From NCBI GenBank assembly GCA_035695685.1, contig DASRRN010000715.1, forward strand, positions 1 to 42,616: 42,616 nt of DNA. Reading direction: 5' to 3'. This DNA is from Acidobacteriaceae bacterium. GTDB lineage: Bacteria; Acidobacteriota; Terriglobia; Terriglobales; Acidobacteriaceae. The notes beneath the pieces were generated by a model that saw only the letters and a list, made by a program, of their open reading frames with translations, did not search any database and was not told the origin of the DNA. Made by a program: the position numbers and the translations under genes. This document shows, piece by piece, positions 126 to 40,986 of the stretch (the first letter of the stretch is position 1; the number at the start of each line of letters is the position of its first letter).

Positions 126-146
126 TGTTGTATTCGTAATCAATCG

Positions 147-174
147 CGGGCCCAGCCCGTACCACTGAAAGGTG
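147..174 (+). promoter_or_regulatory. Conserved 28-nt 5' leader element, copy 1
   Basis: CGGGCCCAGCCCGTACCACTGAAAGGTG is identical to 891-918 and ends 6 nt before ATG 181. It contains the SD-like GAAAGGTG. It can form GGGC-CCA-GCCC and CACU-GAAA-GGUG mini-hairpins. Confidence 0.7.
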
Positions 175-180
175 ACTACC

Positions 181-846
181 ATGTTTGACCTATTCACTAA
201 CTCCCAGCCACAATCCAGCCTAGACTTTCCCGTTTCCCTCACAGAGCGGTACAAACCGCATTCCATCGCAGAGTTTGTAGGCCTCGCCAAACCAAAGGCC
301 TTTTGCGCCAAACTCGCCGCGCGTCCCTATGCTTCCGCATGGCGCTTTGTTGGCCCGAGTGGCACAGGTAAAACCACCATGGCCATGGCGCTTGCGGAGA
401 TGATTCCCGCAGAGGTTCACCACGTCCAATCGCAGGAATGCAACCTAGAGACGCTGGAGCGTGTTTGCCGTACATGCCAATACGTGCCGCGCATGGGCTG
501 CAAGGTGCATTTAATCCTGGTGGATGAGGCCGACCAGATGAGCCCGGCGGCCCAGCTCTATCTGCTCTCTAAGCTGGATGGCACAGAGCAGCTTCCCCAA
601 ACCATCTGGATTTTCACCTGCAACGAAACGGACCGCCTGCAGGATCGTTTCCTATCTCGCACACTCCCCGTGGAATTTTCGAGTTATGGAATCGCTGCTG
701 ATGCTGCCCAGCTCCTGCAGCGCATCTGGAGCGAGAATGCGCCGGCAAACTCGCCTGCTCCTAACTTTGCCCGCCTTGTCAAAGAGTCCAATAACAACGT
801 TCGCGAATCGCTGATGAAATTGGAATTAGAGCTGATGGTGGCCTAG
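181..846 (+). CDS. Clamp-loader-like AAA+ ATPase (RFC small subunit / DnaX-type module, no collar domain)
   Basis: Track ORF is 172..846; ATG 181 is preferred because the SD-like GAAAGGTG lies at 167-174. It has an RYKP..VG box, Walker A GPSGTGKT, Walker B LILVDEAD, sensor-1 FTCNE and an SRC-like LSRT. At about 220 aa it lacks the C-terminal collar. Confidence 0.75.
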   Translation: MFDLFTNSQPQSSLDFPVSLTERYKPHSIAEFVGLAKPKAFCAKLAARPYASAWRFVGPSGTGKTTMAMALAEMIPAEVHHVQSQECNLETLERVCRTCQYVPRMGCKVHLILVDEADQMSPAAQLYLLSKLDGTEQLPQTIWIFTCNETDRLQDRFLSRTLPVEFSSYGIAADAAQLLQRIWSENAPANSPAPNFARLVKESNNNVRESLMKLELELMVA

Positions 847-890
847 TTTCTCGCCGATCGCGCGCCAATCGTCCACGCATTACAACCTAG

Positions 891-918
891 CGGGCCCAGC
901 CCGTACCACTGAAAGGTG
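891..918 (+). promoter_or_regulatory. Conserved 28-nt 5' leader element, copy 2
   Basis: Exact copy of 147-174, again 6 nt upstream of an ATG (925). Confidence 0.7.
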
Positions 919-924
919 CTCACC

Positions 925-1047
925 ATGATGTTCACAAAGTTGTTCCCACTCTCTCTGCTTCTCTCGCTTGCCACAATTGTGGGCGCCGTTATCTATGCGG
1001 TGCTCGCAATAGCTGAACCTCTCACCATCTTGGCTGGGGGTCGCTAA
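925..1047 (+). CDS. Tiny hydrophobic (single-TM) protein, 40 aa
   Basis: Below the ORF-track cut-off. The ATG sits 6 nt after leader copy 2. The product MMFTKLFPLSLLLSLATIVGAVIYAVLAIAEPLTILAGGR is almost all hydrophobic. Its stop overlaps the next ATG (TAATG). Confidence 0.55.
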   Translation: MMFTKLFPLSLLLSLATIVGAVIYAVLAIAEPLTILAGGR

Positions 1048-1905: not shown

Positions 1906-1933
1906 TGTTGAGCTAATCAGTAAACCAAGGTTT

Positions 1934-1972
1934 GGCCGGCATCCACATCGCAGCGGATGCCGGCCGATTTTT
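1934..1972 (+). terminator. Rho-independent terminator
   Basis: Perfect 11-bp stem GGCCGGCATCC / GGATGCCGGCC (1934-1944 / 1955-1965) followed by GATTTTTG. Confidence 0.75.
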
Positions 1973-1973
1973 G

Positions 1974-2053
1974 TTATTACGTAATTACATTATTACGCCC
2001 ATATTCCTATGCGCCGTATATCTCTTGTATATATCCCGCCGCGCTGCTATATA
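1974..2053 (+). promoter_or_regulatory. parA promoter/operator region
   Basis: AT-rich region. TTATTACG direct repeat at 1974 and 1990; palindrome ATTACGTAAT at 1976-1985; TTGTAT (2025-2030), 17 nt, TATATA (2048-2053). Confidence 0.45.
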
Positions 2054-2084
2054 TAAGGCGGATCCGATCGGAGGGATCCGCTTG

Positions 2085-2777
2085 ATGATTCTCACGGTAG
2101 GTAACACCAAAGGCGGGGTCGGCAAAACCACTCTCGCCATCAATCTGACCATCGCTCTTGCCCTGGACGGCGCCGACGTTCTTCTGATCGACGGCGATGA
2201 GCAAGGCACTGCCATGGCCTTTACAGAGCTGAGGAGCGCGCGCCGGCCTGGTGGCGCCGGTTATACCGCGGTTGCTCTCCACGGCGCCGCTATACGCACC
2301 CAGGTGCGCCAGCTGCAATCCAAATACGATCACATCCTGATCGATGTGGGCGGGCGCGATTCCGGCTCTCTGCGCGCCGCGCTCACCGTCTCGAACTGGG
2401 TGCTTATTCCCACCGCGCCGCGCTCGTTCGATCTGTGGGGCGTCGGCCAGACCGCCGATCTGGTGCTCGAGGCGCGCGAAATCAACGCCAATCTCAACGC
2501 CGCGGCCGTCCTCAATGGTGCGGATCCGCGCGGCCGTGACAATCTCGAGGCCCAGGCTGAGCTGGAGCAACTGCAGGGCATTGTAGCTATGCCGTATCGC
2601 CTGGTGCGCCGCAAGGCCTACCCAGACGCTGCAGCACAGGGCCTGGGCGTGGTTGAGCTGCCCGCGCACAATCAGGCCGGCCTTGAGTTTAACCAGCTGC
2701 TCGATTTTCTCTTTGAACCTCAAAGAAACTGGAAAGGAAACTATGACGATTGCACGCAATCCGAAAAAGAAGTCTGA
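2085..2777 (+). CDS. parA: ParA/Soj-family partition ATPase
   Basis: Deviant Walker A, GNTKGGVGKTT, right at the N-terminus (MILTVGNTKGGVGKTTLAINL), followed by LIDGDEQG. SD GGAGGGA at 2070-2076. The track start 1932 would read through the terminator hairpin, so it is rejected. Confidence 0.85.
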   Translation: MILTVGNTKGGVGKTTLAINLTIALALDGADVLLIDGDEQGTAMAFTELRSARRPGGAGYTAVALHGAAIRTQVRQLQSKYDHILIDVGGRDSGSLRAALTVSNWVLIPTAPRSFDLWGVGQTADLVLEAREINANLNAAAVLNGADPRGRDNLEAQAELEQLQGIVAMPYRLVRRKAYPDAAAQGLGVVELPAHNQAGLEFNQLLDFLFEPQRNWKGNYDDCTQSEKEV

Positions 2778-2976
2778 TGTCAAAGCCGATCGCAAGGCCA
2801 GCAAATTTATAGCGGGATCCACGAACGGCGCCGGCCGCGACCTGGTGCCGGTGCTCATCAACCTCGATCGCGCGTTTCTCAAGCGCGTCGACGCCGCCGC
2901 CGTGGTGCGTGGGCTCAGTCGTACCGGCTTTGTCACCTCCGTGCTCGGCGATCGCCTGGCGAGCGAGGGGCAATAG
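2743..2976 (+). CDS. Ribbon-helix-helix DNA-binding protein, ParG-like partner of ParA
   Basis: ATG 2743 lies inside track ORF 2653..2976, with GGAAAGGAAA upstream. The product has a basic flexible N-terminus, then an RHH pattern (VLINLDRAFLKRVDAAAVVRGLSRTGFVTSVLGDRL). It overlaps the parA 3' end by 35 nt. Confidence 0.65.
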   Translation: MTIARNPKKKSDVKADRKASKFIAGSTNGAGRDLVPVLINLDRAFLKRVDAAAVVRGLSRTGFVTSVLGDRLASEGQ

Positions 2977-3615
2977 TCCGACTTTCCCCGTACCAGACAG
3001 TTAGTCTGTTCCCGGAGATCCGGCAAAGCGGGAGGGGTGGGTCCGGGAGGGGAACCGAAGCGGTTTTCCTCCCGGAAGCCCCAGTTTCAGCAAACACCTG
3101 GCCGCTAGCCGCGAACCTAATAAATCCCAAGAATCGATCTGCCCTCGTTTTACAGGGTTTTTGCTCTGTTCACGGACCGGGGCGCAAGTCGTCAGCGTAG
3201 CCCGGAAAACCCGCCTTCCGGCAGGCAAACCCTTTACGGCGCAGTTCTCCCCATCCCCGTTGGGCGCTTCACCGCGGCGACAAGGCCATCAACGGCCGGG
3301 CGCTTACTTTGCTGGGGCTAAACTCTCACGGATTGTTTGTTGGGCGCTTCACAGCCACACTCATCCTGTACGCGTGTGCCCACCCCTGGGATGAAGTCAC
3401 CATGCAGAGGCGCGGCCAAGCGCAGCATCGAAAAGGTCTGGATTTTGTTTGGGTGTTGAATGAGTAACCTTCGCAATCTTGTCTTGGCACTTCCACGGTT
3501 GCAAGCGGTGCCGGGGCGTGTCAATATGAATCCGTGGGGGTGTAATGCCTCCGATGGTTCCTTTCCTCTCTTGTCTTGGCGGATTAGATAGAAAAGGCAC
3601 CCTCACAAACATCAA
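2977..3615. other. 639-nt ORF-free region (candidate centromere / structured ncRNA)
   Basis: No ORF here has a start/SD context. The region lies between convergent transcription units and carries several short direct repeats and GC stems (see findings). Confidence 0.6.
3259..3352. repeat. Direct repeats GTTGGGCGCTTCAC x2 plus one partial copy
   Basis: The exact 14-mer occurs at 3259-3272 and 3339-3352, 80 nt apart. A partial copy, GGGCGCTTAC, is at 3298-3307. Confidence 0.8.
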
Positions 3616-3647
3616 GGCCGGCACCCATCAGGGCAGCCGGCCTTTCT
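3616..3647. terminator. GC hairpin, likely terminator of the minus-strand operon (possibly bidirectional)
   Basis: Stem GGCCGGC / GCCGGCC (3616-3622 / 3636-3642). The flank is T-rich on the minus strand (TTGATGTTTG) and TTTCT on the plus strand. It lies about 25 nt downstream of the minus-strand stop at 3667. Confidence 0.55.
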
Positions 3648-3648
3648 G

Positions 3649-3660
3649 CTGTATATACAG
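3649..3660. promoter_or_regulatory. Perfect 12-bp palindrome CTGTATATACAG
   Basis: Seen directly in the sequence, between the stop at 3667 and the hairpin. Function unknown. Confidence 0.35.
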
Positions 3661-3666
3661 AAGCTA

Positions 3667-3804
3667 TTACGGTGTGTTTTCAAAAAGCCAGCGGAGCCGT
3701 TGGTCACTCTCGCGCGAGAAACGGCCTGCGGCAAATTCGATGAAAATCGCCTTACAGTGCAGGATGGCTGCGAGCGTCCGCGCGTCGATCCTCTTCCAGT
3801 ACAT
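3667..3804 (-). CDS. Hypothetical small protein, 45 aa
   Basis: Internal ATG of track ORF 3667..3882, 2 nt after the stop of the upstream gene. GAAGGGA is upstream. The sequence looks helical (MYWKRIDARTLAAILHCKAIFIEF...). Confidence 0.45.
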   Translation of the reverse strand: MYWKRIDARTLAAILHCKAIFIEFAAGRFSRESDQRLRWLFENTP

Positions 3805-3806
3805 CG

Positions 3807-4142
3807 CTAATCGTCCCTTCGCTCTGCACACTTGCCGGCGATCGGTATGTTGTGCTTTGTGCCGTCCACTCCCTCCATCCACTTTCGGCCGCGCTCAAGA
3901 TAGCGGATGAACTCGACAACATTACTCTGAGCCAGGGCCACCAGCTTGCTGTGGTCCTCTTCGTATGCGATTAGCAGAGAGGTATTGAAGGGAAACATCG
4001 GAGGCGCCAGCGCTCCGCCGGCTTTCAGAGATTCGAGCGAGATCGGATCCGCCTTCTGCATCCGTCCCAGGTTGTCCGGTTCGATCACCACCACAATCAG
4101 GGTGCGCTTCTCTTCCGGTAAATTGAATATTCCACAAATCAT
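3807..4142 (-). CDS. Hypothetical protein, 111 aa
   Basis: Track ORF is 3807..4208. ATG 4142 (MICGIFNL...) forms an ATGA overlap with the DnaC-like stop. Confidence 0.6.
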   Translation of the reverse strand: MICGIFNLPEEKRTLIVVVIEPDNLGRMQKADPISLESLKAGGALAPPMFPFNTSLLIAYEEDHSKLVALAQSNVVEFIRYLERGRKWMEGVDGTKHNIPIAGKCAERRDD

Positions 4143-4975
4143 CGTTTCATTCTCCAGTCCGGTCCCGTCATGTCGACACTCACGCACATCTCCTGCAGCC
4201 GGCTCCACATGCGCATCCCGATGCGATCGCCCAGCGTCTCCTGACGTGTGGCGCGCGCGTACTCATTTTGTACATTTGTTACATTTCCGCCTGCCGGCAA
4301 ATTGGCCAGGTTGGTGGTTACGATCACGGGCACTATACGGTTGTATAGTCCTCCGATCAGTAGCTCGATGGTCTCAAACACCCAATCGCTCGGCCGAGCC
4401 GCGCCCAGCTCGTCAATCACCACCAGGTCTGCATTTAAAAGCGGGGCCAGAATCTGAGCCTGGCTTTCCTTGGCATCATCTCCATAGCTCGATCGCAATC
4501 GATCCAGGAGCTCGCGCACGTCGACAAAGCGGCCGTAGATTCCCTTCTCCTCAATCAGTTGGCGTAGCGCCGCCGCGGCCAGGTGCGTCTTGCCTACTCC
4601 CACACTGCCTGTAAGCATCAGGCCAAGTGTCCGCGGATTGGCAGCCAAACCGGGTACAAACTCGCGCACAAACTGCAGGCTCGTCATCATCGCCTTAGTA
4701 GTGGTTTCCGTCTTTTTGAAATTCTGAAAGCTGGCCTCGAGGTAGCCGGCCGGGATCCGCGATCGCGCAATCATCGCCTTATACCGCTGCGATGTCTGGC
4801 ACCTGCAGGGCGCCGAGCAGCGCACTCCGTCGACCAGGCGCGGCACCAGGCCGATGCCTCCGCATTCCGCGCATGCCGTCATGGTTTCGGGCGCGACCGC
4901 CGTCTGGTTTCGTTGACGAGGATCTTCAGGGCATCTGGATTCATTTTTCCCAGCTGAGCCGCTCCGCCCAGGCAT
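4139..4975 (-). CDS. DnaC/IstB-like AAA+ helicase loader with N-terminal Cys cluster
   Basis: Walker A GSVGVGKTHL, Walker B LVVIDELG, sensor VIVTTNL. The N-terminus has CAECGG..C..C.C. The start is ambiguous (4975 or 4882). Confidence 0.8.
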   Translation of the reverse strand: MPGRSGSAGKNESRCPEDPRQRNQTAVAPETMTACAECGGIGLVPRLVDGVRCSAPCRCQTSQRYKAMIARSRIPAGYLEASFQNFKKTETTTKAMMTSLQFVREFVPGLAANPRTLGLMLTGSVGVGKTHLAAAALRQLIEEKGIYGRFVDVRELLDRLRSSYGDDAKESQAQILAPLLNADLVVIDELGAARPSDWVFETIELLIGGLYNRIVPVIVTTNLANLPAGGNVTNVQNEYARATRQETLGDRIGMRMWSRLQEMCVSVDMTGPDWRMKR

Positions 4976-5073
4976 TGAATTTGCTTGAGCTTGAGGCCTA
5001 GCTTTTTTGCCAGCGCACTGTTAGCCGAGGGCGGGGCCCCGCGATGTGAATTGTGCACGCCTCTGGGCATGGC

Positions 5074-5415
5074 TCAGTTCGCCTTCGCGGCGGCGTTGCC
5101 GGGTCTGATTATCCCCGCGATTGGCACAATAGCCGCATGCGCGAACACGACCCCGGCAGTAGCGGCCTGGAGTGCAGCCCAGCGCGTGTTAAACAATGCT
5201 GCATCCTGGGGCCGGGGCGTCCGCTCGATCTGGCCGGATACCGGACTGGGACCGGCGTAATAGCTCAGATCAGCAAGGCGGATCACGAATAACTGATCTT
5301 CCTGGCCAGGCCCCATCAGGACACCTGGCGGTAGTTGGTAATCGCATTGCGGTTTCGACTCTGGATCCGCGCCTACAAAGAAGAGCTTGAGTTTCTTCCA
5401 AAGATTTTTCAGCAT
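5074..5415 (-). CDS. Hypothetical protein, 113 aa
   Basis: Track ORF is 5074..5613. ATG 5415 (MLKNLWKK...) has GAGGAG 7 nt upstream and overlaps the upstream stop. Confidence 0.55.
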   Translation of the reverse strand: MLKNLWKKLKLFFVGADPESKPQCDYQLPPGVLMGPGQEDQLFVIRLADLSYYAGPSPVSGQIERTPRPQDAALFNTRWAALQAATAGVVFAHAAIVPIAGIIRPGNAAAKAN

Positions 5416-5681
5416 CGAAATCTCCTCAGATCTCGTTCTAAAAGTTCTATTACTTGTTCCATGGTGGCCTCGGGCATGCGGATCCCATGGTGTATCCAAC
5501 CGCCAAATTTTTGAGGCGCCAACTTCCCAACACAATCTGGGCAAATTAATAGCGCGCCCTCTAGCCGCGCCGCCTTCGCGGTTCCTTTTGTGGGCCAGAT
5601 TGAGATGTGACACTGGTCACACCAAGCCAGCTCCGCATTGAGCAGCGATATAGTTCCGCAAATGATGAAGCATTTCTCCAA
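5409..5681 (-). CDS. Small Cys-rich (Zn-ribbon-like) protein, 90 aa
   Basis: The Cys pairs C..C and CPDC are separated by about 35 aa. The start is 2 nt after the upstream stop. Confidence 0.55.
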   Translation of the reverse strand: MEKCFIICGTISLLNAELAWCDQCHISIWPTKGTAKAARLEGALLICPDCVGKLAPQKFGGWIHHGIRMPEATMEQVIELLERDLRRFRC

Positions 5682-5682
5682 A

Positions 5683-6159
5683 TCAAATATCCTTCAGCGA
5701 AATTTGATTCCCGTCTTTGTTGATAAGTCCGGCTTTGTTGAGCTGGTAGACGATCCCCGGCACACTGCCTCGCGCGCAGCCGATGTGGATCCGCAATTGC
5801 GTTTGAGTCAGCGAACCATGCAGCAGGAGCGCATCGATTGCCTTCGCCGTCTGCCCGCCCAGCCTTTGTTTCCAGCTCTCCCAGGCTGCGCTAGATTTTT
5901 GCGCCTGCGGGTGGCTTTGCCTGGCTTCAATATCTAACGCGTCAATCTCGCCAAAAACCATCTGCAGGCCGCGGAACAATGGCTCAAGCACTTGGCGCAA
6001 TTGTGCAACGCCAACCTCGAGAGCGTGAGTTTTCTTGCGCTCATCGCGCAGCTGTTTCTCGAGGTCTCTTAATTGCTCGTTGCGGTTCGCCAGTTCCTGC
6101 TGCAGCGAGCGCATTTGGGCCTGCGCATCCGGCATCGCATTCAAGATAGAAAGGCTCAT
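5683..6159 (-). CDS. Coiled-coil protein with C-terminal winged-helix DNA-binding domain
   Basis: The N-terminus is heptad-like (LQQELANRNEQLRDLEKQLRDERKK). The C-terminus is wHTH-like (SLTQTQLRIHIGCARGSVPGIVYQLNKAGLINKDGNQISL). Confidence 0.6.
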   Translation of the reverse strand: MSLSILNAMPDAQAQMRSLQQELANRNEQLRDLEKQLRDERKKTHALEVGVAQLRQVLEPLFRGLQMVFGEIDALDIEARQSHPQAQKSSAAWESWKQRLGGQTAKAIDALLLHGSLTQTQLRIHIGCARGSVPGIVYQLNKAGLINKDGNQISLKDI

Positions 6160-6770
6160 GCGGCGCCTCCGCTGGCGGCCGTCAACTTCGCGCGAAATGC
6201 GCCCAGGGTCTGCGAAAGAATCGCCGGCGCTCCAACTCGCTGAAGGCCGCGGATATAGGTGAACGCCAGTTTCAGCGCCTGCATATTCAGCCGTGCCTCG
6301 TTGTACTGGTCAATAGCCATTACATATTCGTGGCGGTGGCCATGTGTCCCCGTAATCCAGGCTTTGGCTTGAATGCGCGCTTCGTTCAGTTTTTTGAATA
6401 GAGCCGGATCCCCGCCGTCTGGTGAGTCGGGGTGACATTTGCGCGCGCGATCGCGAAATACCTCATCAATCTCAGCCATCGTGGGCGCCGGGTTATCGAG
6501 GCCTAAAATCTGCTGCCAGGAAAAGTCTTCCGTCTTCAGTGAAAACCACACTGCCACTCCAGGATCCAGCTGCTCGCTTTCGTGGCGGCTGATGAGAATG
6601 GAAGCTGCTTTCATGCGCCCCAACTCCTCCACTAGCGCCTTGAAGTATTCTGTGCGGCTTTGCTTCCATGCCGGTTGCCGTTTGCGGTCCTTGATGCGCG
6701 TCCGATCAATGCCGTCCGGCCAGCGCAGTTTCGTCTCTTCGGTTACATCAATCGTTTTGTGAGCTGGCAT
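6156..6770 (-). CDS. J-domain (DnaJ-like, HPD motif) protein
   Basis: ILGLDNPAPTMAEIDEVFRDRARKCHPDSPDGGDPALFKKLNEA matches the J-domain helix II-HPD-helix III pattern. ATG 6770 (MPAHK) overlaps the upstream stop by 1 nt. Confidence 0.75.
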   Translation of the reverse strand: MPAHKTIDVTEETKLRWPDGIDRTRIKDRKRQPAWKQSRTEYFKALVEELGRMKAASILISRHESEQLDPGVAVWFSLKTEDFSWQQILGLDNPAPTMAEIDEVFRDRARKCHPDSPDGGDPALFKKLNEARIQAKAWITGTHGHRHEYVMAIDQYNEARLNMQALKLAFTYIRGLQRVGAPAILSQTLGAFRAKLTAASGGAA

Positions 6771-6940
6771 TATGACCCCTTCCCCGTCCATGGCGCGCCC
6801 TTTTTCGTGGGCCTCGCATCGAAGCTCAACTTTTCCAGGACCTCCTGGATAGCCTTCTCTATCGCTTCATTCTTATCCGCAGCTTCGATCTCCAAGCAAT
6901 CAGGTATAGTGCCCCAGATCACTACATCAAACTTTCGCAT
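6770..6940 (-). CDS. Hypothetical small protein, 56 aa
   Basis: Below the track cut-off. The product starts MRKFDVVIWGTIPDCLEIEAADKNEAIEKAIQEVLEKL.... The stop overlaps the J-protein ATG (TAATG). Confidence 0.45.
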   Translation of the reverse strand: MRKFDVVIWGTIPDCLEIEAADKNEAIEKAIQEVLEKLSFDARPTKKGAPWTGKGS

Positions 6941-7130
6941 TGGTTCCTTTCTCGAGCTCCGCCAGGGCGGTGGCCAGCTGGCGCTCCCGCTCCACCAGTG
7001 TCCAGGCCAGGTTATGGGTATCTAGTTCGCTCAGCTGCTCGGCCCGGTGGCGCTCCTCAAACTCGAGCTTGCCGCTCAATCCCGGCAGCCCCTCCACGCG
7101 CAACAGCAAGATCATCTCCGGAGTACGCAT
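6927..7130 (-). CDS. Hypothetical protein, 67 aa
   Basis: Track ORF in an operon context with a helical, charged sequence. Confidence 0.5.
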   Translation of the reverse strand: MRTPEMILLLRVEGLPGLSGKLEFEERHRAEQLSELDTHNLAWTLVERERQLATALAELEKGTNAKV

Positions 7131-7142
7131 CGCAACTCTCCT

Positions 7143-7502
7143 TCACAGTTCCAAGACGAACGCCAAAACTTCTTCAATGGTTATCTTGTCTTCGGTTAAA
7201 ACATCCTCCCAAGTCTCAACGTGATCGCTGAATCGGGCGTAATCCAACACGATCGAGCGCAGGGCCGCCCCCATGGCCGGCCTGGCCAGCATGCCGGCTT
7301 TGGCGATTGCCTGAGCATTGGCGCCTTCCTCCGCTTCCCCAAGGCCGCCGATAATGAGCGCGATGCCTCCAGGAGCATCGGGCGCTCTTACCACGAAGCG
7401 CGCGCCGCTCCAACCGCCCAATGGCGCGCTAAATTTCACTACTTCCCATGGCGGTTTTGTGTGCATCAGTCCCCCGCTTTCGGAATGTCGTAGGGCTTCC
7501 AT
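7143..7502 (-). CDS. Hypothetical protein, 107-119 aa
   Basis: Track ORF. The start is 7502 or 7466, and both have G-rich SD-like sequence upstream. Confidence 0.5.
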   Translation of the reverse strand: MEALRHSESGGLMHTKPPWEVVKFSAPLGGWSGARFVVRAPDAPGGIALIIGGLGEAEEGANAQAIAKAGMLARPAMGAALRSIVLDYARFSDHVETWEDVLTEDKITIEEVLAFVLEL

Positions 7503-7689
7503 CCTGGATTGCCCTCATTGAGCTTGTTGGCGATCGCGAGAAAGTTATATAGGCCAGCTTCTCCATGCCGTTCCTGCATGCGGATCCAGTTGCCATGCCG
7601 GCCATCATCACCAGGGCGTCCCACTCCTCCCGCGTCAAGGTGAGATTCAGTTGAACGCTGGTGCCATCCTCACTTACTTTGAACATCAC
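7429..7689 (-). CDS. Hypothetical protein, 86 aa
   Basis: Track ORF with an ATGA overlap on the ATPase stop. The 3' end overlaps the next gene, so the exact extent is uncertain. Confidence 0.45.
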   Translation of the reverse strand: MMFKVSEDGTSVQLNLTLTREEWDALVMMAGMATGSACRNGMEKLAYITFSRSPTSSMRAIQDGSPTTFRKRGTDAHKTAMGSSEI

Positions 7690-9020
7690 TCCTCCCCGTT
7701 GCGCGCGATCACCATGCCGTCTTCGAGCACAATGCCCACCTTGCCGCTCGAATCCACCTTGGCCATCCAGATCTGGAAATCATGCTCCTTGGCCATCTTG
7801 GCCAGCATCTTCAAGCCGTCCTCGTCCAGGGCCTCGCCGTGGCGGATCGAGAGCACGCGCAACTTGGGGTTGGCTGCCATGCCGATCTCGGTTGAGATCC
7901 GGATCTGCTCACCCTCGCCCAGGTTCTCGAGGGGTAGGCCTTTGTAGAGCACCTTGCTCTCGTCAAATACCAGGCCATCCACGGGGATCTTGGCGTTGGC
8001 CAGCATGTCCCGTTTCTTCTCGTCGCGCGCATCGATGGCCCGCGTGAGTTTGGTGCTCTCGGCTTCCTTCGATTCCAGGCGCGCTTTCAAAAGGTCGTAC
8101 TGCGTGCGCGCATCCATGGCCCGGTTGGTGCGTTGCGCTGCCTGCAGCTCCTGGGTGAGTGCGGTGACGTCGATCGGTTCGCCCGAGGGTGCATTCTTAT
8201 GTGCGGTGATAGCCTCGCCGGCGGACATGTCCAGAGATTTGCGCACATCTTGCGCGGCCTTTCTGGTTTTCTTCTGCTGCTCCAGCTGCTGCTCGAGGCT
8301 CCGAACCCTTTCATCCTGCTCTGCAATCAACGCTTCGTTATCGTCGATCGCTCTCTGTGCTGATGCCGCTTTCGCGGCCAGCCGTTCCTTGGTGATGAAG
8401 ACTTCCTGCGCCTTGCGGTTCAGGTCGCCGGCTTCATTCAGCTTTTTCAAAATCGCCTGCTCATCGATCTTCGCTTTAGGCAAACCTTCGATCACTGTCA
8501 TGCCGTTCATCTGGGCCTTTAGTTCTCTGGCCTCGCGGTTGACGTCGGTGCGCGCGGTGTAATCGGTTTCGTTCGCCGCATTCAGTTTTTCGATCGCTTC
8601 GGAGTCTACGCCGGCGACCTGGCGCAGCATCTCCACCTTGGCATCGGTATCCATGCGCACAAATTCGAGCGGATCGAAGGTGAGCGTACCGATAATCTTG
8701 TCCAGAAATTCCTGGGGCGTGGTATCCCGCGTCTTACCTTTGGCCATCTCGATGTTGATGGTTGGCAGGCCACCATCGGTGCAGGTGCGAGTCACTGTGA
8801 ATTCGCCGAAGTCGGCTTTCACTCTCAGCTTCTCCGCGCCCTTGCGCACCGCGCTCTTGGGCAGCGCTGCTTTGCCCTTCAACACAAACCACAGCGCATC
8901 AAGTACGCTGCTCTTGCCCTGGCCATTCTTGCCGGTGAGTTTCACCACATTGCCGTCAGGCCGGATCTCCACCACACGAATCTTTTTGAAATTCTCCGCT
9001 ACCAGTTCCAGGATCTTCAT
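7686..9020 (-). CDS. SMC/Rad50/SbcC-like ABC ATPase with central coiled coil
   Basis: The N-terminus reads MKILELVAENFKKI..LTGKNGQGKSSVLDAL (Walker A). A coiled coil of about 250 aa follows. The C-terminus has a signature-like LGEGEQ and Walker B LRVLSIRHGEALD. ATG 9020 is preferred over the track start 9089. Confidence 0.75.
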   Translation of the reverse strand: MKILELVAENFKKIRVVEIRPDGNVVKLTGKNGQGKSSVLDALWFVLKGKAALPKSAVRKGAEKLRVKADFGEFTVTRTCTDGGLPTINIEMAKGKTRDTTPQEFLDKIIGTLTFDPLEFVRMDTDAKVEMLRQVAGVDSEAIEKLNAANETDYTARTDVNREARELKAQMNGMTVIEGLPKAKIDEQAILKKLNEAGDLNRKAQEVFITKERLAAKAASAQRAIDDNEALIAEQDERVRSLEQQLEQQKKTRKAAQDVRKSLDMSAGEAITAHKNAPSGEPIDVTALTQELQAAQRTNRAMDARTQYDLLKARLESKEAESTKLTRAIDARDEKKRDMLANAKIPVDGLVFDESKVLYKGLPLENLGEGEQIRISTEIGMAANPKLRVLSIRHGEALDEDGLKMLAKMAKEHDFQIWMAKVDSSGKVGIVLEDGMVIARNGEE

Positions 9021-9193
9021 TTCGTTTTCGCCTTCCCTTTTTTCGGTTCTTTGATCGTCACTTCCAGGAGCACCATGGGCATGAAACATTTAGTGCAAAA
9101 CGGTGGATCCTCACCCCTGCAATCGGCCGCGGGCCGGTGCTCAATGGTTTGGCAGCCCACACATCTCAACTTGAATGTTGCGACCTGGGTCAT
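9017..9193 (-). CDS. Zn-ribbon protein, 58 aa
   Basis: Below the track cut-off. It has CVGC...CTKC and a lysine-rich tail. ATGA overlap with the ATPase start. Confidence 0.55.
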   Translation of the reverse strand: MTQVATFKLRCVGCQTIEHRPAADCRGEDPPFCTKCFMPMVLLEVTIKEPKKGKAKTK

Positions 9194-9202
9194 CCGCTTT
9201 AC

Positions 9203-9346
9203 TCACTTTCTGGTTGCTTTTTCGAGCAGATCGATCACCAGCTGCTGCAGGGATTTGCCTTGTTGGAGAGCCTGCATCTTCAGCTTGTTCACCACGGCCG
9301 AGTCGATCGCCGGGATCCGTAGTTGCTGCATTCCGTCCTTTGCCAT
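9203..9346 (-). CDS. Ribbon-helix-helix (Arc/CopG-like) protein, 47 aa; first gene of the operon
   Basis: Below the track cut-off. LRIPAIDSAVVNKLKMQALQQGKSLQQLVIDLLEKA fits a strand-helix-helix pattern. Confidence 0.6.
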   Translation of the reverse strand: MAKDGMQQLRIPAIDSAVVNKLKMQALQQGKSLQQLVIDLLEKATRK

Positions 9347-9353
9347 GTGGGCA

Positions 9354-9381
9354 ATGTTAGCATAACTGGCACAAGCGGCAA
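9354..9381 (-). promoter_or_regulatory. Candidate promoter for the RHH-led operon (near-leaderless)
   Basis: On the minus strand: TTGCCG (9381-9376), 16 nt, TAACAT (9359-9354). The -10 box ends 7 nt before ATG 9346. Confidence 0.3.
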
Positions 9382-9397
9382 AGCGCGATCGTAAAAG

Positions 9398-9456
9398 TCT
9401 GAAGGAAACTCTTCAGAGTCTGACGGAAAAAGAAACGGCGCCCCGAAAGGCGCCGC
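9398..9456 (-). terminator. Tandem rho-independent terminators ending the late (structural/lysis) transcript
   Basis: On the minus strand: CGGCGCC-loop-GGCGCCG (9455-9436) then TTTCTTTTT. A second stem, TCTGAAG/CTTCAGA (9417-9398), is followed by CTTTTAC. Confidence 0.65.
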
Positions 9457-39268: not shown

Positions 39269-39634
39269 TTACACATTAATGGTTCCCAGGTGTGCTTCAA
39301 GCGGAGATGCGCCGCCGGAATGGCTTTCCTCGAGCTCTGCGGCGGCCGGCTTATTCTTCGGCCCGCGTTTGTTTCCCTTCTTCCATCCCCGCTTCACGCC
39401 GTGGGCTTTGTTGTACTCATTGCGCCACAGCGTAAAGAGCCGTCGTTGTTCCGGAGTACTCGGCCGGTTGCAGTTCCTACACCTGGTCATATCGCGCAGC
39501 ACCCGGCGCGCATTTTTCAGATCGCGCGCATGCGCATCGCTGCAGGTGACGGCCTTGCGCGTCACTCGCTCCGGGGCAATCGGTTCGCCGCAAATCACGC
39601 AATGAAACACAAGCTCGGTCAGATTTTTCGGCAT
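39269..39634 (-). CDS. Small Zn-finger/basic protein, 121 aa (paralog A)
   Basis: The N-terminus MPKNLTELVFHCVICGEP is shared with the next gene. It also has CRNC and a Lys/Arg-rich tail. Confidence 0.55.
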   Translation of the reverse strand: MPKNLTELVFHCVICGEPIAPERVTRKAVTCSDAHARDLKNARRVLRDMTRCRNCNRPSTPEQRRLFTLWRNEYNKAHGVKRGWKKGNKRGPKNKPAAAELEESHSGGASPLEAHLGTINV

Positions 39635-39948
39635 CGTAGTCCCTTCAGTTCGCGACGGTATAGTTCGCGGTCCTGTTCCAGTGTGGCTTGTAGGGCGTCC
39701 CGCTCGGCTTCTACCTTCTTTGCCCAGTCATAGTTGTCATTGCAAAGTCTATGGCTGGTTTCGAGGAGATCCCTGATTGCCTCGAAAGTCGACAACTGAC
39801 CTGTTGGGTTACATCGATACTTTCGCATCAGTTCGGCAAACTTTTCGATTTCCTCTTGCTGTGCCTGTATCTGCTGCTCAATGTCGGCGGGTAATCCTGT
39901 GCCGCAAATCACACAATTAAACACAAGCTCGGTCGGATTTTTTGGCAT
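39587..39948 (-). repeat. Duplicated 48-nt gene 5' end (39587-39634 and 39901-39948)
   Basis: gccgcaaatcacgcaatgaaacacaagctcggtcagatttttcggcat aligns with gccgcaaatcacacaattaaacacaagctcggtcggattttttggcat at about 90% identity. Confidence 0.85.
39619..39948 (-). CDS. Small protein, 109 aa (paralog B)
   Basis: The N-terminus is MPKNPTELVFNCVICGTG. The remainder is helical and unrelated to paralog A. Confidence 0.55.
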   Translation of the reverse strand: MPKNPTELVFNCVICGTGLPADIEQQIQAQQEEIEKFAELMRKYRCNPTGQLSTFEAIRDLLETSHRLCNDNYDWAKKVEAERDALQATLEQDRELYRRELKGLRCRKI

Positions 39949-40034
39949 CGCTCAGTGTCCCTTCAATTCATTCCAAAAACTGCGCGCCAGCCAGATCACC
40001 GCATAAGCTCCAAGCATCGCCCAGGTTAAATCGC

Positions 40035-40580
40035 TCACAATGTTTCCTCCACAATCTCCACCCGCACGTGTACACGTTCAGGTGTTCCATAAATTTTGTG
40101 CAGCTCATAGTCGACCACCTGGCTGTCGTCTTCATAGAGCACGCCGGTCAATCCGTCGGCGGTGCTCCGAGCAAGCTTGTCCAGGTCAGGTTTCACTGTC
40201 GGCCGAGCGCGTGTCGCCGGCGCAGATTTGGGACGCGCGAAAACAAAAGTGATGGCCACGCGTACCGGCACACCCGCCGGTGCCAGGAGCAGCTCATGCA
40301 GGCCTGCGGCGGCTTTCGCGCGCAGCGCCGCCCAGCCCACTTCATTGCGATAGGGATGGGTGCGCTTATTGTCGCTTTTGAAAATCGTGCCTGGGCTTCC
40401 ATCCTCGCGCACAATGGCGACGCCGCTCATGCTGCCCTGGGGTGCGGCCTTGCACTCGACGATGAATTCGATGGCTCTTACTTTAAGCAGTTGATTGACT
40501 GCTGCTTGAGCATTCTGTCCGCGCTCGATAAAGTCCGTCCATGCTTGTCGCTCAGCCTTCTGCGTCATCCTGGCCATCAT
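40035..40580 (-). CDS. rusA: RusA-family Holliday-junction resolvase (with N-terminal extension)
   Basis: VKPDLDKLARSTADGLTGVLYEDDSQVVDYELHKIY matches the RusA acidic catalytic core. ATG 40580 is chosen because the track start 40718 would overlap the divergent RHH gene. Confidence 0.7.
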   Translation of the reverse strand: MMARMTQKAERQAWTDFIERGQNAQAAVNQLLKVRAIEFIVECKAAPQGSMSGVAIVREDGSPGTIFKSDNKRTHPYRNEVGWAALRAKAAAGLHELLLAPAGVPVRVAITFVFARPKSAPATRARPTVKPDLDKLARSTADGLTGVLYEDDSQVVDYELHKIYGTPERVHVRVEIVEETL

Positions 40581-40633
40581 TTTTTCTGCATCCCGATTTC
40601 TTATGAAGTGTACCAGTGTTGTACCATGCCGCC
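40581..40633. promoter_or_regulatory. Divergent control region between the minus-strand and plus-strand arms
   Basis: The spacer is 53 nt. TGTACCA is repeated at 40609-40615 and 40620-40626 (11-bp phase), next to a T-run. Confidence 0.45.
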
Positions 40634-40876: not shown

Positions 40877-40986
40877 GTATTCCGCCACTGCTCCAAGCAT
40901 GATTAGGAGCATTTTTGTTCGCGCCGTTTTTGATCGTGCATGCCCGATGCTCCGAGCATCGCTCCTGCATAACGAGGTATGGGCTA

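What the first reader, a model, noticed from the sequence alone, without database searches (positions are those of the whole stretch)
3667..9456. Separately insulated RHH-led 14-gene operon combining an SMC/Rad50-like ATPase, a J-protein, a wHTH protein and a DnaC-like loader
The late transcript is stopped by two consecutive terminators (9398-9456). A new unit then starts with a 47-aa RHH protein whose ATG is only 7 nt from a -10-like TAACAT, which suggests a leaderless mRNA (inference).

The unit contains:
- a Zn-ribbon protein and an ABC ATPase with a long coiled coil (7686..9020);
- four tiny unknown proteins;
- a J-domain protein and a coiled-coil/winged-helix protein;
- another Zn-ribbon protein and an unknown protein;
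- a DnaC/IstB-like AAA+ protein;
- two small proteins.

The operon ends at a hairpin (3616-3642). I see no Mre11/SbcD-type nuclease, RecT/Erf/Sak annealase, helicase, primase or polymerase.

It could be an unusual replication/recombination module. SMC-like and AAA+ ATPases under autonomous control are also typical of prophage-borne defence or exclusion cassettes, so the function is open.
Basis: partly seen in the sequence, partly recalled or inferred. Interest (0 to 1): 0.68.

Follow-up and report, generated by a model that had tools for sequence, protein, structure and literature searches.

The report
Phage replication–recombination operon, separately promoted
This is a compact, separately promoted block of about 15 genes in a ~43-kb phage of soil Acidobacteria; it most likely supplies the phage's helicase loader and DNA-handling ATPase, not an anti-phage defence system, so it is a fairly ordinary module made of poorly understood parts.

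Summary
A strong intrinsic terminator (9456-9435) closes the lysis genes. A promoter with an extended -10 sits 7 nt before an SD-less ATG of a 47-aa RHH protein. A tightly coupled minus-strand gene string runs to a strong terminator hairpin (3642-3616).

The layout recurs in at least eight related ~41-46-kb phage contigs, one binned with a Terracidiphilus MAG:
- Core genes: an SMC/RecN/Rad50-fold ATPase (phrog_1499), a small ORFan (g11) and a DnaC/DnaI-type loader.
- The J-domain and coiled-coil/wHTH genes are a mobile two-gene cassette.
- The operon tail is an accessory slot; one relative carries an Acb2/Tad1 anti-defence gene there.

The ATPase family occurs in 242 phage records, beside RecT, Sak4, SSB, exonuclease, helicase or primase genes, and in only one plasmid record. 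PADLOC gives only generic P-loop matches.

Best reading: an RHH-autoregulated early or maintenance DNA replication/recombination operon. It probably works with a DUF1376 initiator and a 13-bp repeat cluster on the other arm. Defence is unlikely.

Corrections:
- g4 is frameshifted.
- The loader probably starts at 4882.
- The second upstream hairpin is not conserved.

In passing: a conserved ~610-nt structured-RNA candidate with no Rfam match lies just downstream (2990-3600).

The parts
9435..9456 (-). Intrinsic terminator that closes the late/lysis transcript (stem GCGGCGCC/GGCGCCGT, loop TTTC, then TTTCTTTTT)
   Evidence: dG -21.8, z -4.2. Invariant in L003, L008 and L021.
9392..9424 (-). Second, weaker hairpin followed by CTTTTAC; not conserved in all relatives
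   Evidence: dG -12.3, z -2.9. Present in the window and L003, absent from L008 and L021.
9354..9381 (-). Operon promoter: -35 TTGCCG (9381-9376), 16-nt spacer, extended -10 TGc-TAACAT (9362-9354). Tandem heptads TGTGCCA-gt-TATGCTA (9373-9358) overlap the -10 and are the candidate RHH operator.
   Evidence: Sequence. The geometry and heptads are conserved in L003, L008 and L021. The operator role is inferred.
9203..9346 (-). g1: 47-aa ribbon-helix-helix protein. Its ATG lies 7 nt after the -10, with no SD (leaderless geometry).
   Evidence: Pfam FitA-like_RHH, E 2.4e-5 (24.7 bits, cut-off 27). Homologues at 76-87% identity lead the operon in L003, L008 and L021.
9017..9193 (-). g2: 58-aa Zn-ribbon-like protein (CxxC...CxxC). 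Its stop overlaps the ATPase start (ATGA).
   Evidence: Homologues in L003, L008 and L021. Other small Cys-rich proteins lie near the ATPase in L004 and L010.
7686..9020 (-). g3: 444-aa ABC-type ATPase with an SMC/RecN/Rad50 fold and a ~190-aa coiled-coil insertion; member of phrog_1499
   Evidence: E 3.2e-85; Foldseek: SMC heads, Smc5/6, RecN, Rad50, RecF. Motifs.
7466..7686 (-). g4: small conserved protein, frameshifted in the window. The N-terminal part is in the frame starting at ATG 7686; the C-terminal part is in the frame ending at 7466.
   Evidence: An intact 72-aa homologue at L012 9598-9816 aligns to two frames of the window. A g4-like gene lies just upstream of the ATPase in L004.
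7143..7466 (-). g5: ~107-aa conserved unknown protein (motif APGGxAxxxGGLGE-EE-ANA)
   Evidence: Homologues in L003, L004, L008, L012 and L021. No Pfam, PHROG, NCBIfam or PDB match.
6927..7130 (-). g6: 67-aa unknown protein
   Evidence: Homologues in L003, L008 and L021. No family match.
6770..6940 (-). g7: 56-aa unknown protein. It recurs at varying positions in the operons of relatives.
   Evidence: Homologues in L004, L010, L012 and L020.
6156..6770 (-). g8: 204-aa J-domain protein. The J domain (HPD) is inserted in a phrog_9210 domain of unknown fold.
   Evidence: Pfam DnaJ, E 3.9e-5 (24.1 bits, cut-off 27.8). phrog_9210, E 8e-16. HPD invariant in 30 homologues. Foldseek matches only J domains.
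5683..6159 (-). g9: 158-aa protein with an N-terminal coiled coil and a C-terminal winged helix. It forms a mobile pair with g8.
   Evidence: MarR 11/29, TrmB 6/29, TFIIE_alpha 6/29 members. Adjacent to g8 homologues in L011, L012 and probably L022 (a 216-aa upstream gene, homology not checked).
5409..5681 (-). g10: 90-aa Cys-rich (CxxC x2) Zn-ribbon-like protein with a TTG start; specific to the window
   Evidence: No homologue in the related loci.
5074..5415 (-). g11: 113-aa ORFan-family protein, always just upstream of the loader in relatives
   Evidence: Only 11 clusters in 1.84 billion representatives.
4879..5070 (-). Possible extra 63-aa ORF (g11b) filling the g11-g12 gap. Its stop overlaps ATG 4882. 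Doubtful.
   Evidence: No homologues and no family match.
4139..4882 (-). g12: 247-aa DnaC/DnaI-type AAA+ helicase loader with an N-terminal Cys cluster (CxxCGG...C...CxC)
   Evidence: phrog_50, E 3.4e-46. IstB_IS21, E 1.8e-10. PDB: A. aeolicus DnaC 1.2e-21, DnaI, E. coli DnaC. NCBIfam. The conserved start is shown.
3807..4142 (-). g13: 111-aa unknown protein, coupled to g12 (ATGA overlap)
   Evidence: Homologues in L012, L021 and L004. No PDB match.
3667..3804 (-). g14: 45-aa ORF in the variable tail slot
   Evidence: No homologues. Relatives carry other genes here, e.g. XRE regulators and an Acb2/Tad1-like gene in L021.
3616..3642 (-). Terminator hairpin ending the operon (GGCCGGCTGCCC-TGAT-GGGTGCCGGCC, then TTGATGTTTGTG)
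   Evidence: dG -31.3, z -5.6. Identical in L003 and near-identical in L012.

Best explanation
The block is the separately promoted DNA replication/recombination (early or maintenance) operon of a ~43-kb tailed phage of Acidobacteria.

Shown:
- The late/lysis transcript ends at a conserved intrinsic terminator.
- A conserved extended -10 promoter lies 7 nt before the first ATG.
- 14-15 translationally coupled genes run to a conserved terminator.
- The gene families are as listed in the parts.
- The ATPase + g11 + loader core is conserved across related phages.

Inferred mechanism:
1. The 47-aa RHH protein is translated from a leaderless mRNA. It binds the tandem TGTGCTA heptads that overlap the -10 and so autoregulates the unit.
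2. The DnaC/DnaI-type AAA+ protein uses its N-terminal Cys cluster to load the host DnaB helicase onto phage DNA. The genome encodes no helicase, primase or polymerase of its own.
3. Loading probably takes place at an origin on the other arm. There a DUF1376 (YdaU-type) initiator gene is studded with a 13-bp palindrome (40.0-42.3 kb).
4. The SMC/RecN-like ATPase, with its small conserved partners (g2, g4, g5, g7), holds or processes DNA ends or branched intermediates during recombination-dependent replication or concatemer formation. This is inferred from its homologues' position beside RecT, Sak4, SSB or exonuclease genes in other phages.
5. The J-domain protein recruits host DnaK to remodel a nucleoprotein complex built by its partner, the coiled-coil/wHTH protein. 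This resembles DnaJ/DnaK action on lambda P-DnaB or P1 RepA.
6. The 3' tail is a swap-in slot for accessory genes.
For: Insulation and single-unit structure.

Conserved position and core in relatives L003/L005, L004, L008, L009, L010, L012, L020 and L021.

ATPase:
- phrog_1499, E 3e-85.
- 242 phage records against 1 plasmid record.
- Neighbours are RecT + exonuclease + SSB + DnaJ-like + wHTH in Sansa; Sak4 + DEAD helicase + primase in Dragolir, with a DEAD/DEAH helicase downstream in EFC-1; and exonuclease + SSB + helicase + clamp in Sakai.
- SMC-like ATPases next to phage annealase genes are noted as uncharacterised in PMC8093625.
- SMC/RecN/Rad50/RecF fold.

Loader: phrog_50 E 3e-46, PDB DnaC E 1e-21, with Walker A GSVGVGKT, Walker B VVIDE and SRL read directly in the sequence.

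J domain: HPD invariant; Foldseek matches J domains only.

wHTH at family level.

DUF1376 gene and enrichment of the 13-nt motif (18 matches, 3.3 expected).

No iteron array inside the operon.

Lead regulator is an RHH in four genomes and an XRE-HTH in L010.
Against: - There are no expression data, so neither the timing (early lytic or prophage state) nor the leaderless start is demonstrated.
- The ATPase family has no characterised member. It lacks a canonical Walker B (hhhhDE) and a Zn hook, and no nuclease or annealase partner is present here. Its role is inferred from the neighbourhoods of distant homologues (22-37% identity).
- The candidate initiator and origin lie ~5 kb away across the contig ends, on the opposite strand. 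This is atypical for O/P-type modules.
- Six to seven small products have no detectable homology outside this phage group.
- The J/wHTH cassette also occurs in unrelated phage regions among glycosyltransferase genes, so it need not act in replication.
Confidence: 0.65

Rival explanations
1. The unit is a plasmid-style maintenance replicon operon. It is expressed at a low, RHH-autoregulated level in the carrier (prophage) state of an extrachromosomal phage-plasmid. It supplies the helicase loader, and perhaps an SMC-like DNA organiser, for vegetative plasmid replication rather than for the lytic burst. This overlaps the best explanation and differs mainly in timing and purpose.
For: - ParA plus a small ParG-like RHH gene converge on the operon.
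- No integrase was found among the ORFs scanned; none of the large ORFs tested hits an integrase family, though 3 of the 10 gave no match and not every ORF was searched.
- ArdC and DUF3560 plasmid-type genes lie on the same arm in relatives.
- An RHH autoregulator and a leaderless first gene are typical of maintenance and immunity genes (established knowledge: lambda cI from PRM, CopG, omega, ParG).
- Related contigs are whole ~41-46-kb units. The one read from a MAG (L003) is entirely phage genes.
Against: - The ATPase family is almost absent from plasmids: 1 of 72,556 records.
- The family is present in phages whose records list no lysogeny genes near it.
- No plasmid Rep protein was found.
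- The contigs may simply be packaged virion genomes. Three contigs start at the same place, which suggests fixed ends.
Confidence: 0.2
2. The unit is a defence, superinfection-exclusion or abortive-infection cassette. It is carried by the phage and built around an SMC-like ATPase and an AAA+ protein under autonomous control.
For: - There are generic resemblances of the ATPase N-terminus to AriA, LmuB, PtuA, GajA and Old (E 4.5e-10 to 1e-5).
- Foldseek also lists retron-Eco7 and Lamassu LmuB among distant hits.
- The unit has its own promoter and terminator.
- Many of its small proteins are unknown.
Against: - The PADLOC hits cover only the P-loop region and are about 75 orders of magnitude weaker than the phrog_1499 match.
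- No nuclease, protease, TIR, SIR2 or other effector domain is present.
- The core occupies the same position in all relatives instead of being a variable island.
- The ATPase family sits in the replication modules of hundreds of phages.
- The AAA+ protein is a bona fide DnaC/DnaI relative.
- A relative carries an anti-defence gene (Acb2/Tad1), not a defence gene, in the operon tail.
Confidence: 0.07
3. The block is not one operon but a chance string of co-oriented genes, with internal promoters and read-through from the late genes.
For: - Only one consensus sigma-70-like site was found in the region, and it is internal (4176-4149).
- Acidobacterial promoters are poorly known.
- There is a 190-nt stretch between g11 and the conserved loader start.
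Against: - Overlapping or closely spaced stop/start codons occur at most junctions.
- Strong conserved terminators are found only at the two ends.
- The promoter geometry is conserved at the 5' end.
Confidence: 0.05

Closest known systems
Replication/recombination modules of temperate Firmicute phages: SMC-like ATPase, then Sak4, then DEAD helicase and primase (e.g. Paenibacillus phage Dragolir gp51-57, Enterococcus phage EFC-1)
   Same: - The same ATPase family, with full-length alignment at 22-25% identity and a phrog_1499 match.
- The same early-region position, downstream of small regulators.
   Different: - The window has no Sak4, helicase or primase.
- It has a DnaC/DnaI-type loader instead.
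- The Walker B region differs: FVLLDKLE in those phages, VLSIRHGE here.
Caulobacter phage Sansa gp68 region (ATPase, SAP-domain protein, RecT, exonuclease; a divergent wHTH, DnaJ-like protein and SSB)
   Same: - It has the closest isolated-phage ATPase (37% identity).
- A wHTH protein and a phrog_9210-type 'DnaJ-like' protein lie next to the DNA-metabolism genes.
   Different: - Sansa has RecT, an exonuclease, an SSB and RNase H; the window has none of these.
- Sansa gp74 shares the flanking domain of g8 but not the J-domain insertion point.
Lambdoid O/P-type modules, especially Rac prophage YdaU (DUF1376) + YdaV (DnaC-like)
   Same: The genome holds both a DUF1376 protein (40915-42036) and a DnaC-like loader. 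Repeats inside and around the DUF1376 gene recall ori-lambda inside gene O. The comparison with Rac and lambda rests on established knowledge.
   Different: - The two genes are not adjacent. They lie on opposite strands in different transcription units.
- The loader has a DnaI-like N-terminal Cys cluster.
Rad50/SbcC-Mre11/SbcD, RecN, RecF and SMC head ATPases
   Same: - The fold of the split ABC head with a coiled-coil insertion.
- Walker A, a Q-loop glutamine, a signature-like LGEGE and a D-loop.
   Different: - No Zn hook or hinge.
- No canonical Walker B DE.
- No Mre11/SbcD nuclease gene.
- Only 444 aa.
- Sequence similarity is limited to the P-loop region (E 0.015 to PDB Rad50).
Phage- and virus-encoded J-domain proteins (Rki of T4-like phage RB43; the J domain of SV40 large T antigen) and host DnaJ/DnaK action on lambda P-DnaB and P1 RepA
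   Same: - An HPD-bearing J domain encoded by a phage.
- Rki was described as the first functional phage JDP (PMC3486835).
- Here the J protein sits in a replication operon next to a wHTH protein, as in chaperone-activated initiators. This analogy is inferred.
   Different: - Rki acts on sigma-32, not on replication.
- g8 has an unrelated phrog_9210 scaffold.
- No functional data exist.
Defence ATPases PARIS AriA, Lamassu LmuB, Septu PtuA, Gabija GajA and OLD
   Same: An ABC/AAA_15-type N-terminal P-loop region.
   Different: - No partner effector (AriB, LmuA, PtuB or a TOPRIM/nuclease).
- The matches are partial and weak.
- The family is phage-resident.

Membership tests
phrog_1499 (phage SMC-like ATPase family, function unknown) | Full-length match to the family profile | tested here: met
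   E 3.2e-85, residues 1-437 of 444 on profile positions 3-423 of 427. Full-length tblastn hits in 137 phage records.
Rad50/SbcC | Walker A, Q-loop, signature motif and D-loop of an ABC head split by a coiled coil | tested here: met
   GKNGQGKS, Q103, LGEGEQ aligned to LSGGEQ of Rad50, and ALD. Foldseek matches to Rad50 heads, E ~1e-9.
Rad50/SbcC | Canonical Walker B hhhhDE with a catalytic glutamate | tested here: not met
   The region reads VLSIRHGEALD. The acidic residue shifts position across the family.
Rad50/SbcC | CxxC zinc hook at the coiled-coil apex | tested here: not met
   No cysteine lies between residues 140 and 341; the only Cys is C80.
Rad50/SbcC | Adjacent Mre11/SbcD phosphoesterase partner | tested here: not met
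   No product of the operon matches a nuclease or phosphoesterase family in Pfam, PHROGs or NCBIfam.
SMC proper | Hinge domain and long (>300 aa per arm) coiled coil; kleisin partner | tested here: not met
   The insertion is ~190 aa with helices 140-172, 187-242, 249-275 and 285-341, and no globular hinge. A kleisin partner cannot be tested here.
DnaC/DnaI helicase loaders (AAA+ initiator clade) | AAA+ core with Walker A, Walker B, sensor I and box VII arginine; profile and structure-sequence match | tested here: met
   GSVGVGKT, LVVIDELG, VTTN and SRL read in the sequence. phrog_50 E 3.4e-46. PDB DnaC 3ecc E 1.2e-21, DnaI 2w58 and E. coli DnaC 6qel. NCBIfam scores are below the equivalog cut-offs.
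DnaC/DnaI helicase loaders (AAA+ initiator clade) | N-terminal helicase-interaction domain (Zn-binding in DnaI) and actual binding or loading of DnaB | not testable with these tools
   A conserved CxxCGG...C...CxC cluster sits at the N-terminus. Its function is untested.
IS21 IstB transposition helper | Adjacent IstA transposase and IS ends | tested here: not met
   No transposase is present in the window's scanned ORFs. The gene is syntenic in all phage relatives.
J-domain proteins (Hsp70 co-chaperones) | HPD tripeptide between helices II and III of a four-helix J fold | tested here: met
   H113-P114-D115 are invariant in 30 homologues. The AF2 helices match Sis1, CbpA and DnaJ J domains (rmsd 1.8-4.7 A, 28-32% identity). 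The Pfam score of 24.1 is below the cut-off of 27.8 for this protein, but PF00226 is precomputed for many homologues.
J-domain proteins (Hsp70 co-chaperones) | Stimulation of DnaK ATPase | not testable with these tools
   This needs a complementation or ATPase assay.
Ribbon-helix-helix (MetJ/Arc/CopG) regulators | beta-strand, helix, G-x-S/T turn, helix; profile match | tested here: inconclusive
   FitA-like_RHH E 2.4e-5, but 24.7 bits is below the cut-off of 27. Other RHH families match weakly. The pattern LRIPAID / AVVNKLKMQALQQGKS / LQQLVIDLLEKA fits by eye.
Known anti-phage defence systems (PADLOC-DB) | Full-length match of at least one core protein, plus its partner genes | tested here: not met
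   Only partial P-loop matches were found (AriA E 4.5e-10, LmuB E 7.9e-9). No partner protein was matched.

The most novel reading that the evidence does not exclude
The operon and the conserved ~610-nt structured RNA immediately downstream together form the autonomous replicon of an acidobacterial phage-plasmid.
- The RNA would act as a primer or regulator of replication (ColE1-RNA-II-like or antisense-like).
- The DnaI-like loader would bring in host DnaB.
- The phage-encoded J protein would recruit DnaK to activate its partner wHTH protein. That would be a bacterial-virus counterpart of chaperone-activated plasmid initiators and of the J domain of SV40 T antigen.
- The nuclease-less SMC-like ATPase, which lacks a canonical Walker B, would act as a DNA tether rather than as a Rad50-type processor.
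Probability: 0.12. Interest if true: 0.75.

Novelty: new variant of a known kind. Interest (0 to 1): 0.4.

Why it matters
- It gives a clean, conserved and minimal genomic setting for phrog_1499. This SMC-like ATPase is found in hundreds of phages and has no characterised member. Here it has no nuclease or annealase, only a few small partners, and is paired with a helicase loader.
- It provides a candidate replication-linked phage J-domain protein with a fixed wHTH partner.
- It documents the genome plan of a group of phages that probably infect Acidobacteria (Terracidiphilus-type hosts), for which very little is known.
- None of this overturns current ideas. The value lies in annotation and in choosing tractable targets.

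Tried and rejected
- PADLOC scan of ten products: only generic P-loop hits, so defence membership was rejected.
- Rfam at gathering level on the whole window, and at E <= 10 on 2900-3720: nothing.
- Search for iterons or an origin inside the operon: only two-copy chance repeats.
- Exact look-up of the ATPase: not on record.
- Single-protein scans of genome contigs found nothing; viral contigs gave only the L003 phage.
- Exact-pattern scans for the RNA element in viral, metagenome and genome collections: only the same phages or chance coding matches.
- Exhaustive HMMER search with g11: 11 clusters, no informative fusion.
- Profile searches of g5 and g13 against the PDB: nothing.
- The non-J part of g8 has no Foldseek match; the model is only pLDDT 67.
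- Literature search for phrog_1499 or an SMC-like partner of Sak4: only a passing mention of uncharacterised SMC/AAA genes near annealases.
- IS21 IstB identity for g12 was rejected, because there is no IstA and the gene is syntenic in phages.
- The 278-aa form of g12 was rejected, because its N-terminal 31 residues are not conserved and are interrupted by a stop in L009.
- A sigma-54-like reading of GGCAC...TTGC at ~3505 was rejected by eye, for wrong spacing and lack of conservation.

Full report
CONTEXT

The 42.6-kb window is a tailed-phage genome. On the minus strand it carries, in order:
- RusA (40718-40035);
- large terminase (38162-36504);
- portal (35289-33145);
- major head protein (30900-29728);
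- tail fibre (14970-11110);
- lysozyme (10613-10170);
- a GTA-type 3-TM holin (10260-9679);
- a 55-aa membrane protein (9663-9496).

On the plus strand, running across the contig ends, lie:
- a DUF1376 'primosomal' protein (40915-42036);
- an AAA+ protein (172-846);
- ParA (1932-2777);
- a small ParG-like RHH ORF ending at 2976.

No tRNA was found. No integrase was found among the ORFs that were scanned. The finding occupies the stretch between the lysis genes and the convergent ParA unit.

Forty nucleotides after the last lysis gene there is a textbook intrinsic terminator (9456-9435; dG -21.8 kcal/mol, z -4.2). It is base-for-base identical in three related genomes.

The second hairpin (9424-9392) is weaker (dG -12.3). 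It is present in only one of those relatives.

- -35 TTGCCG (9381-9376);
- a 16-nt spacer;
- an extended -10, TGc-TAACAT (9362-9354);
- 7 nt;
- ATG (9346).

There is no purine-rich Shine-Dalgarno, whereas most downstream genes have one.

In L003, L008 and L021 the -10 hexamers differ (TACTAT, TATCCT, TACCCT). All keep TGn, TAnnnT and exactly 7 nt to the ATG.

A more distant relative (L010) has TAAACT-N9-ATG before an XRE-HTH gene. L004 has a normal leadered arrangement. A leaderless first gene is therefore well supported as a conserved design, though not proven.

A tandem heptad, TGTGCTA-N2-TGTGCTA (window: TGTGCCAgtTATGCTA, 9373-9358), overlaps the -10 in all four genomes. It is my candidate for the RHH operator (inference).

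From 9346 to 3667 the genes are packed with ATGA or TGATG overlaps, or with spacers of 14 nt or less, at most junctions. The string ends at a very stable hairpin (3642-3616; dG -31.3, z -5.6) that is conserved in relatives.

CORRECTIONS TO THE GENE LIST

- The 86-aa ORF g4 is a frameshifted copy of an intact 72-aa gene in L012. The N- and C-terminal halves align to two different frames of the window. With the corrected frame its stop overlaps the g5 start at 7466.
- The conserved DnaC-like protein begins at the CxxCGG motif (ATG 4882, 247 aa). The 31 extra residues of the long ORF are not conserved, and L009 has a stop there.
- A 63-aa ORF (5070-4879) would fill the resulting gap with an ATGA overlap. 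It has no homologues, so it is doubtful.

WHAT THE PRODUCTS ARE

g1 (RHH). It matches FitA-like RHH profiles just below Pfam's cut-off.

g3 (ATPase).
- It matches phrog_1499 ('unknown function') over its full length at E 3e-85.
- Pfam gives AAA_23, AAA_15 and SMC_N.
- An AlphaFold model built on 33 homologues has pLDDT 76. It shows a split ABC head and a four-helix coiled-coil insertion.
- Foldseek returns SMC, Smc5/6, RecN, Rad50 and RecF heads at E 1e-13 to 1e-8.
- Walker A, a Q-loop glutamine, a signature-like LGEGEQ (aligned by HMMER to LSGGEQ of Rad50) and the D-loop are conserved.
- There is no hhhhDE Walker B. The region reads VLSIRHGEALD, and the acidic residue wanders across the family.
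- The coiled coil has no cysteine, so there is no zinc hook.

g12 (loader).
- It is a DnaC/DnaI-type AAA+ protein: phrog_50 E 3e-46; PDB Aquifex DnaC E 1e-21, Geobacillus DnaI and E. coli DnaC.
- It has an N-terminal Cys cluster reminiscent of the Zn-binding helicase-interaction domain of DnaI (comparison from established knowledge).

g8 (J-domain protein).
- HPD is invariant in 30 homologues.
- The model matches only J domains in the PDB.
- The J domain is inserted into a phrog_9210 domain of unknown fold.

g9 (coiled coil plus winged helix). 11 of 29 homologues hit MarR, 6 hit TrmB and 6 hit TFIIE-alpha.

g2 and g10 each carry two CxxC pairs.

g4, g5, g6, g7, g11, g13 and g14 have no detectable family.

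COMPARATIVE EVIDENCE

The ATPase has more than 1,400 homologues in metagenomes. Many lie on contigs of 41-46 kb. One (85% identity) is annotated by NCBI as from a Terracidiphilus sp. MAG, on a 43-kb contig made up of phage genes.

Eight related loci share the same plan:
1. tail genes;
2. lysis genes;
3. a non-coding gap with a terminator;
4. small regulator(s);
5. the ATPase;
6. small genes;
7. g11;
8. the DnaC-like loader;
9. a variable tail;
10. then, convergently, ParA/ParG-like, ArdC or DUF3560, and AAA+ genes.

tblastn of every window product against these loci gives this picture:
- ATPase, g11 and the loader are universal.
- g5, g6, g7, g4 and g13 are frequent, but their order can change.
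- g8 + g9 occur only in the window and L012 within this group.

g8 + g9 also occur elsewhere:
- They are adjacent in an unrelated phage-like contig (L011).
- In a 1.5-Mb contig (L022), a g9 homologue follows a 216-aa gene of matching size, which I did not test for homology to g8.
- Both of those contexts sit among glycosyltransferase genes.
- The g8 and g9 homologue lists share at least 20 identical longest-contig lengths. The pair is therefore a mobile two-gene cassette.

Other points:
- At the position of g7-g10, L003, L020 and L021 instead carry a ~580-aa HerA/DUF87-type ATPase, with two wHTH-like repeats read by eye.
- The operon tail holds XRE regulators in L004, L009 and L012. In L021 it holds a gene that passes Pfam's cut-off for the Acb2/Tad1 hairpin domain, an anti-defence sponge.

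WHERE THE ATPASE FAMILY LIVES

It occurs in 242 records of the phage collection: Vibrio, Arthrobacter, Streptococcus, Flavobacterium, Cellulophaga, Paenibacillus and others. It occurs in 1 of 72,556 plasmid records, on a 2.7-Mb replicon.

In annotated phages it sits inside DNA-metabolism modules:

| Phage | Genes around the ATPase |
|---|---|
| Sansa | SAP-domain protein, RecT, exonuclease, RNase H; divergently wHTH, DnaJ-like, SSB |
| Dragolir | Sak4, DEAD helicase, primase |
| EFC-1 | unannotated genes, then a DEAD/DEAH helicase |
| Sakai | exonuclease before it; SSB, helicase and clamp after it |

A survey of Firmicute annealases also notes uncharacterised SMC/AAA genes beside recT (PMC8093625).

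PADLOC gives only partial N-terminal matches (best AriA, E 4.5e-10) and no partner genes.

These facts make a defence cassette unlikely. They place the unit among phage replication/recombination modules.

HOW IT PROBABLY WORKS

Shown: an insulated, conserved transcription unit led by a small DNA-binding protein. It encodes the only helicase loader of a genome that has no helicase, primase or polymerase of its own.

Inferred:
1. The RHH protein autoregulates through the heptads over the -10.
2. The loader brings the host DnaB onto phage DNA.
3. The origin is probably not in the operon, because no iterons were found there.
4. The origin is more likely at 40.0-42.3 kb. There the palindrome ATGCTCCRAGCAT occurs about a dozen times in and around the DUF1376 gene (18 strand matches, 3.3 expected, 0 of 100 shuffles reaching that). 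This recalls ori-lambda inside gene O and the YdaU/YdaV pair of the Rac prophage (established knowledge).
5. The SMC/RecN-like ATPase and its small partners act on DNA ends or branched intermediates.
6. The J protein recruits host DnaK to remodel a complex formed by its wHTH partner.

Whether the unit serves the lytic burst or low-level plasmid-type replication in a carrier state cannot be decided here. The following hints point to a phage-plasmid lifestyle:
- a ParA/ParG-like pair;
- no integrase found;
- plasmid-type genes (ArdC, DUF3560) in relatives;
- RHH control.

NOVELTY AND SCORE

The kind of thing is known: a phage replication/recombination module with a DnaC-like loader.

The variant features are:
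- a phrog_1499 ATPase without an annealase or nuclease;
- a loader separated from its presumptive initiator;
- a J-domain/wHTH cassette;
- a conserved leaderless RHH leader.

Only one phage J protein has been characterised (Rki, PMC3486835), and that one does not act in replication.

I rate the interest as moderate to low (0.4). The finding is a sound annotation target rather than a surprise.

SIDE OBSERVATION

The 650 nt between the operon terminator and the ParG-like gene are non-coding, yet they are better conserved than the flanking proteins. For example, L021 shows 88% nucleotide identity in this element, while its ATPase is 79% identical in amino acids.

Four versions were found: the window, L003/L015, L012 and L021. 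They support a common fold:
- 172 predicted pairs, 18 of them with compensatory double changes.
- On the three-sequence alignment, 18 pairs had double changes, against 7.3 +/- 2.0 in shuffles and 1-3 in slid controls.
- UUCG and interchanging GNRA (GGAA/GAGA) loops and many G-U pairs are seen on the minus strand.
- The minus strand folds better than shuffles (z -2.6); the plus strand does not (z -0.75).

No Rfam family matches. Relatives L004 and L009 carry a 183-184-aa ORF at this position instead. This looks like an undescribed ~610-nt structured RNA of this phage group, and its function is open.

Noticed in passing
window 2990-3600, minus strand (between the operon terminator at 3616 and the ParG-like gene end at 2976): A conserved ~610-nt non-coding element that looks like an undescribed structured RNA.
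- It is more conserved than the neighbouring proteins.
- 172 pairs are predicted, 18 with compensatory changes across 4 versions.
- It has UUCG and GNRA loops.
- The minus strand folds with z -2.6; the plus strand with z -0.75.
- There is no Rfam match.
- It was found only in the window, L003/L015, L012 and L021. L004 and L009 have a 183-184-aa ORF there instead.

   Followed up: partly
window 40005-42246 (both strands; mostly within and around the DUF1376 gene 40915-42036): The 13-nt palindromic motif ATGCTCCRAGCAT occurs at about 12 sites (18 strand matches with up to 2 mismatches, 3.3 expected). There is none near the target operon. It is a candidate iteron or operator array and replication origin.
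   Followed up: partly
window 1932-2976, plus strand: ParA (phrog_164, E 5e-42) is followed by a small RHH-looking ParG-like ORF that is conserved in relatives. No integrase was found among the ORFs scanned. Together these suggest a plasmid-like (phage-plasmid) lifestyle.
   Followed up: partly
window 7540-7570 (inside g4): A one-nucleotide frame disruption relative to the intact 72-aa homologue at L012 9598-9816. It could be an assembly error, a real mutation or recoding; this is undecided.
   Followed up: partly
window position 1; contig starts of L003 and L010: Three independent assemblies start within about 200 nt upstream of the same AAA+ gene (172-846 in the window). This suggests fixed physical genome ends rather than random breaks of a circle. 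No terminal repeat was seen in the window.
   Followed up: no
window 146-183 and 890-927, plus strand: A 38-nt direct repeat (92% identical) ends in ...GAAAGGTG(A/C)(C/T)(T/C)ACCATG just before two plus-strand ATGs. It may be a shared 5' leader or regulatory element (D9).
   Followed up: no
L021 10612-10833 (homologous operon tail): A 73-aa gene matches the Acb2/Tad1 hairpin domain (E 2.3e-10, 40.9 bits, above the cut-off of 27). That is an anti-CBASS/Thoeris sponge, sitting in the slot where the window has g14.
   Followed up: partly
window 40616-40876, plus strand: An 86-aa ORF upstream of the DUF1376 gene has an RHH-like pattern by eye (ISIRVRF / HAQIALVKTAAARRG / FNFYLQSVLQAV) but no Pfam hit. 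If it is real, both arms of the genome are led by RHH proteins.
   Followed up: no
window 39269-39948, minus strand: Two adjacent small genes begin with near-identical 50-nt 5' ends (a 92% direct repeat at 39587-39636 and 39901-39950) and both start MPKN(L/P)TELVF(H/N)CVICG. One weakly hits a treble-clef Zn family.
   Followed up: no
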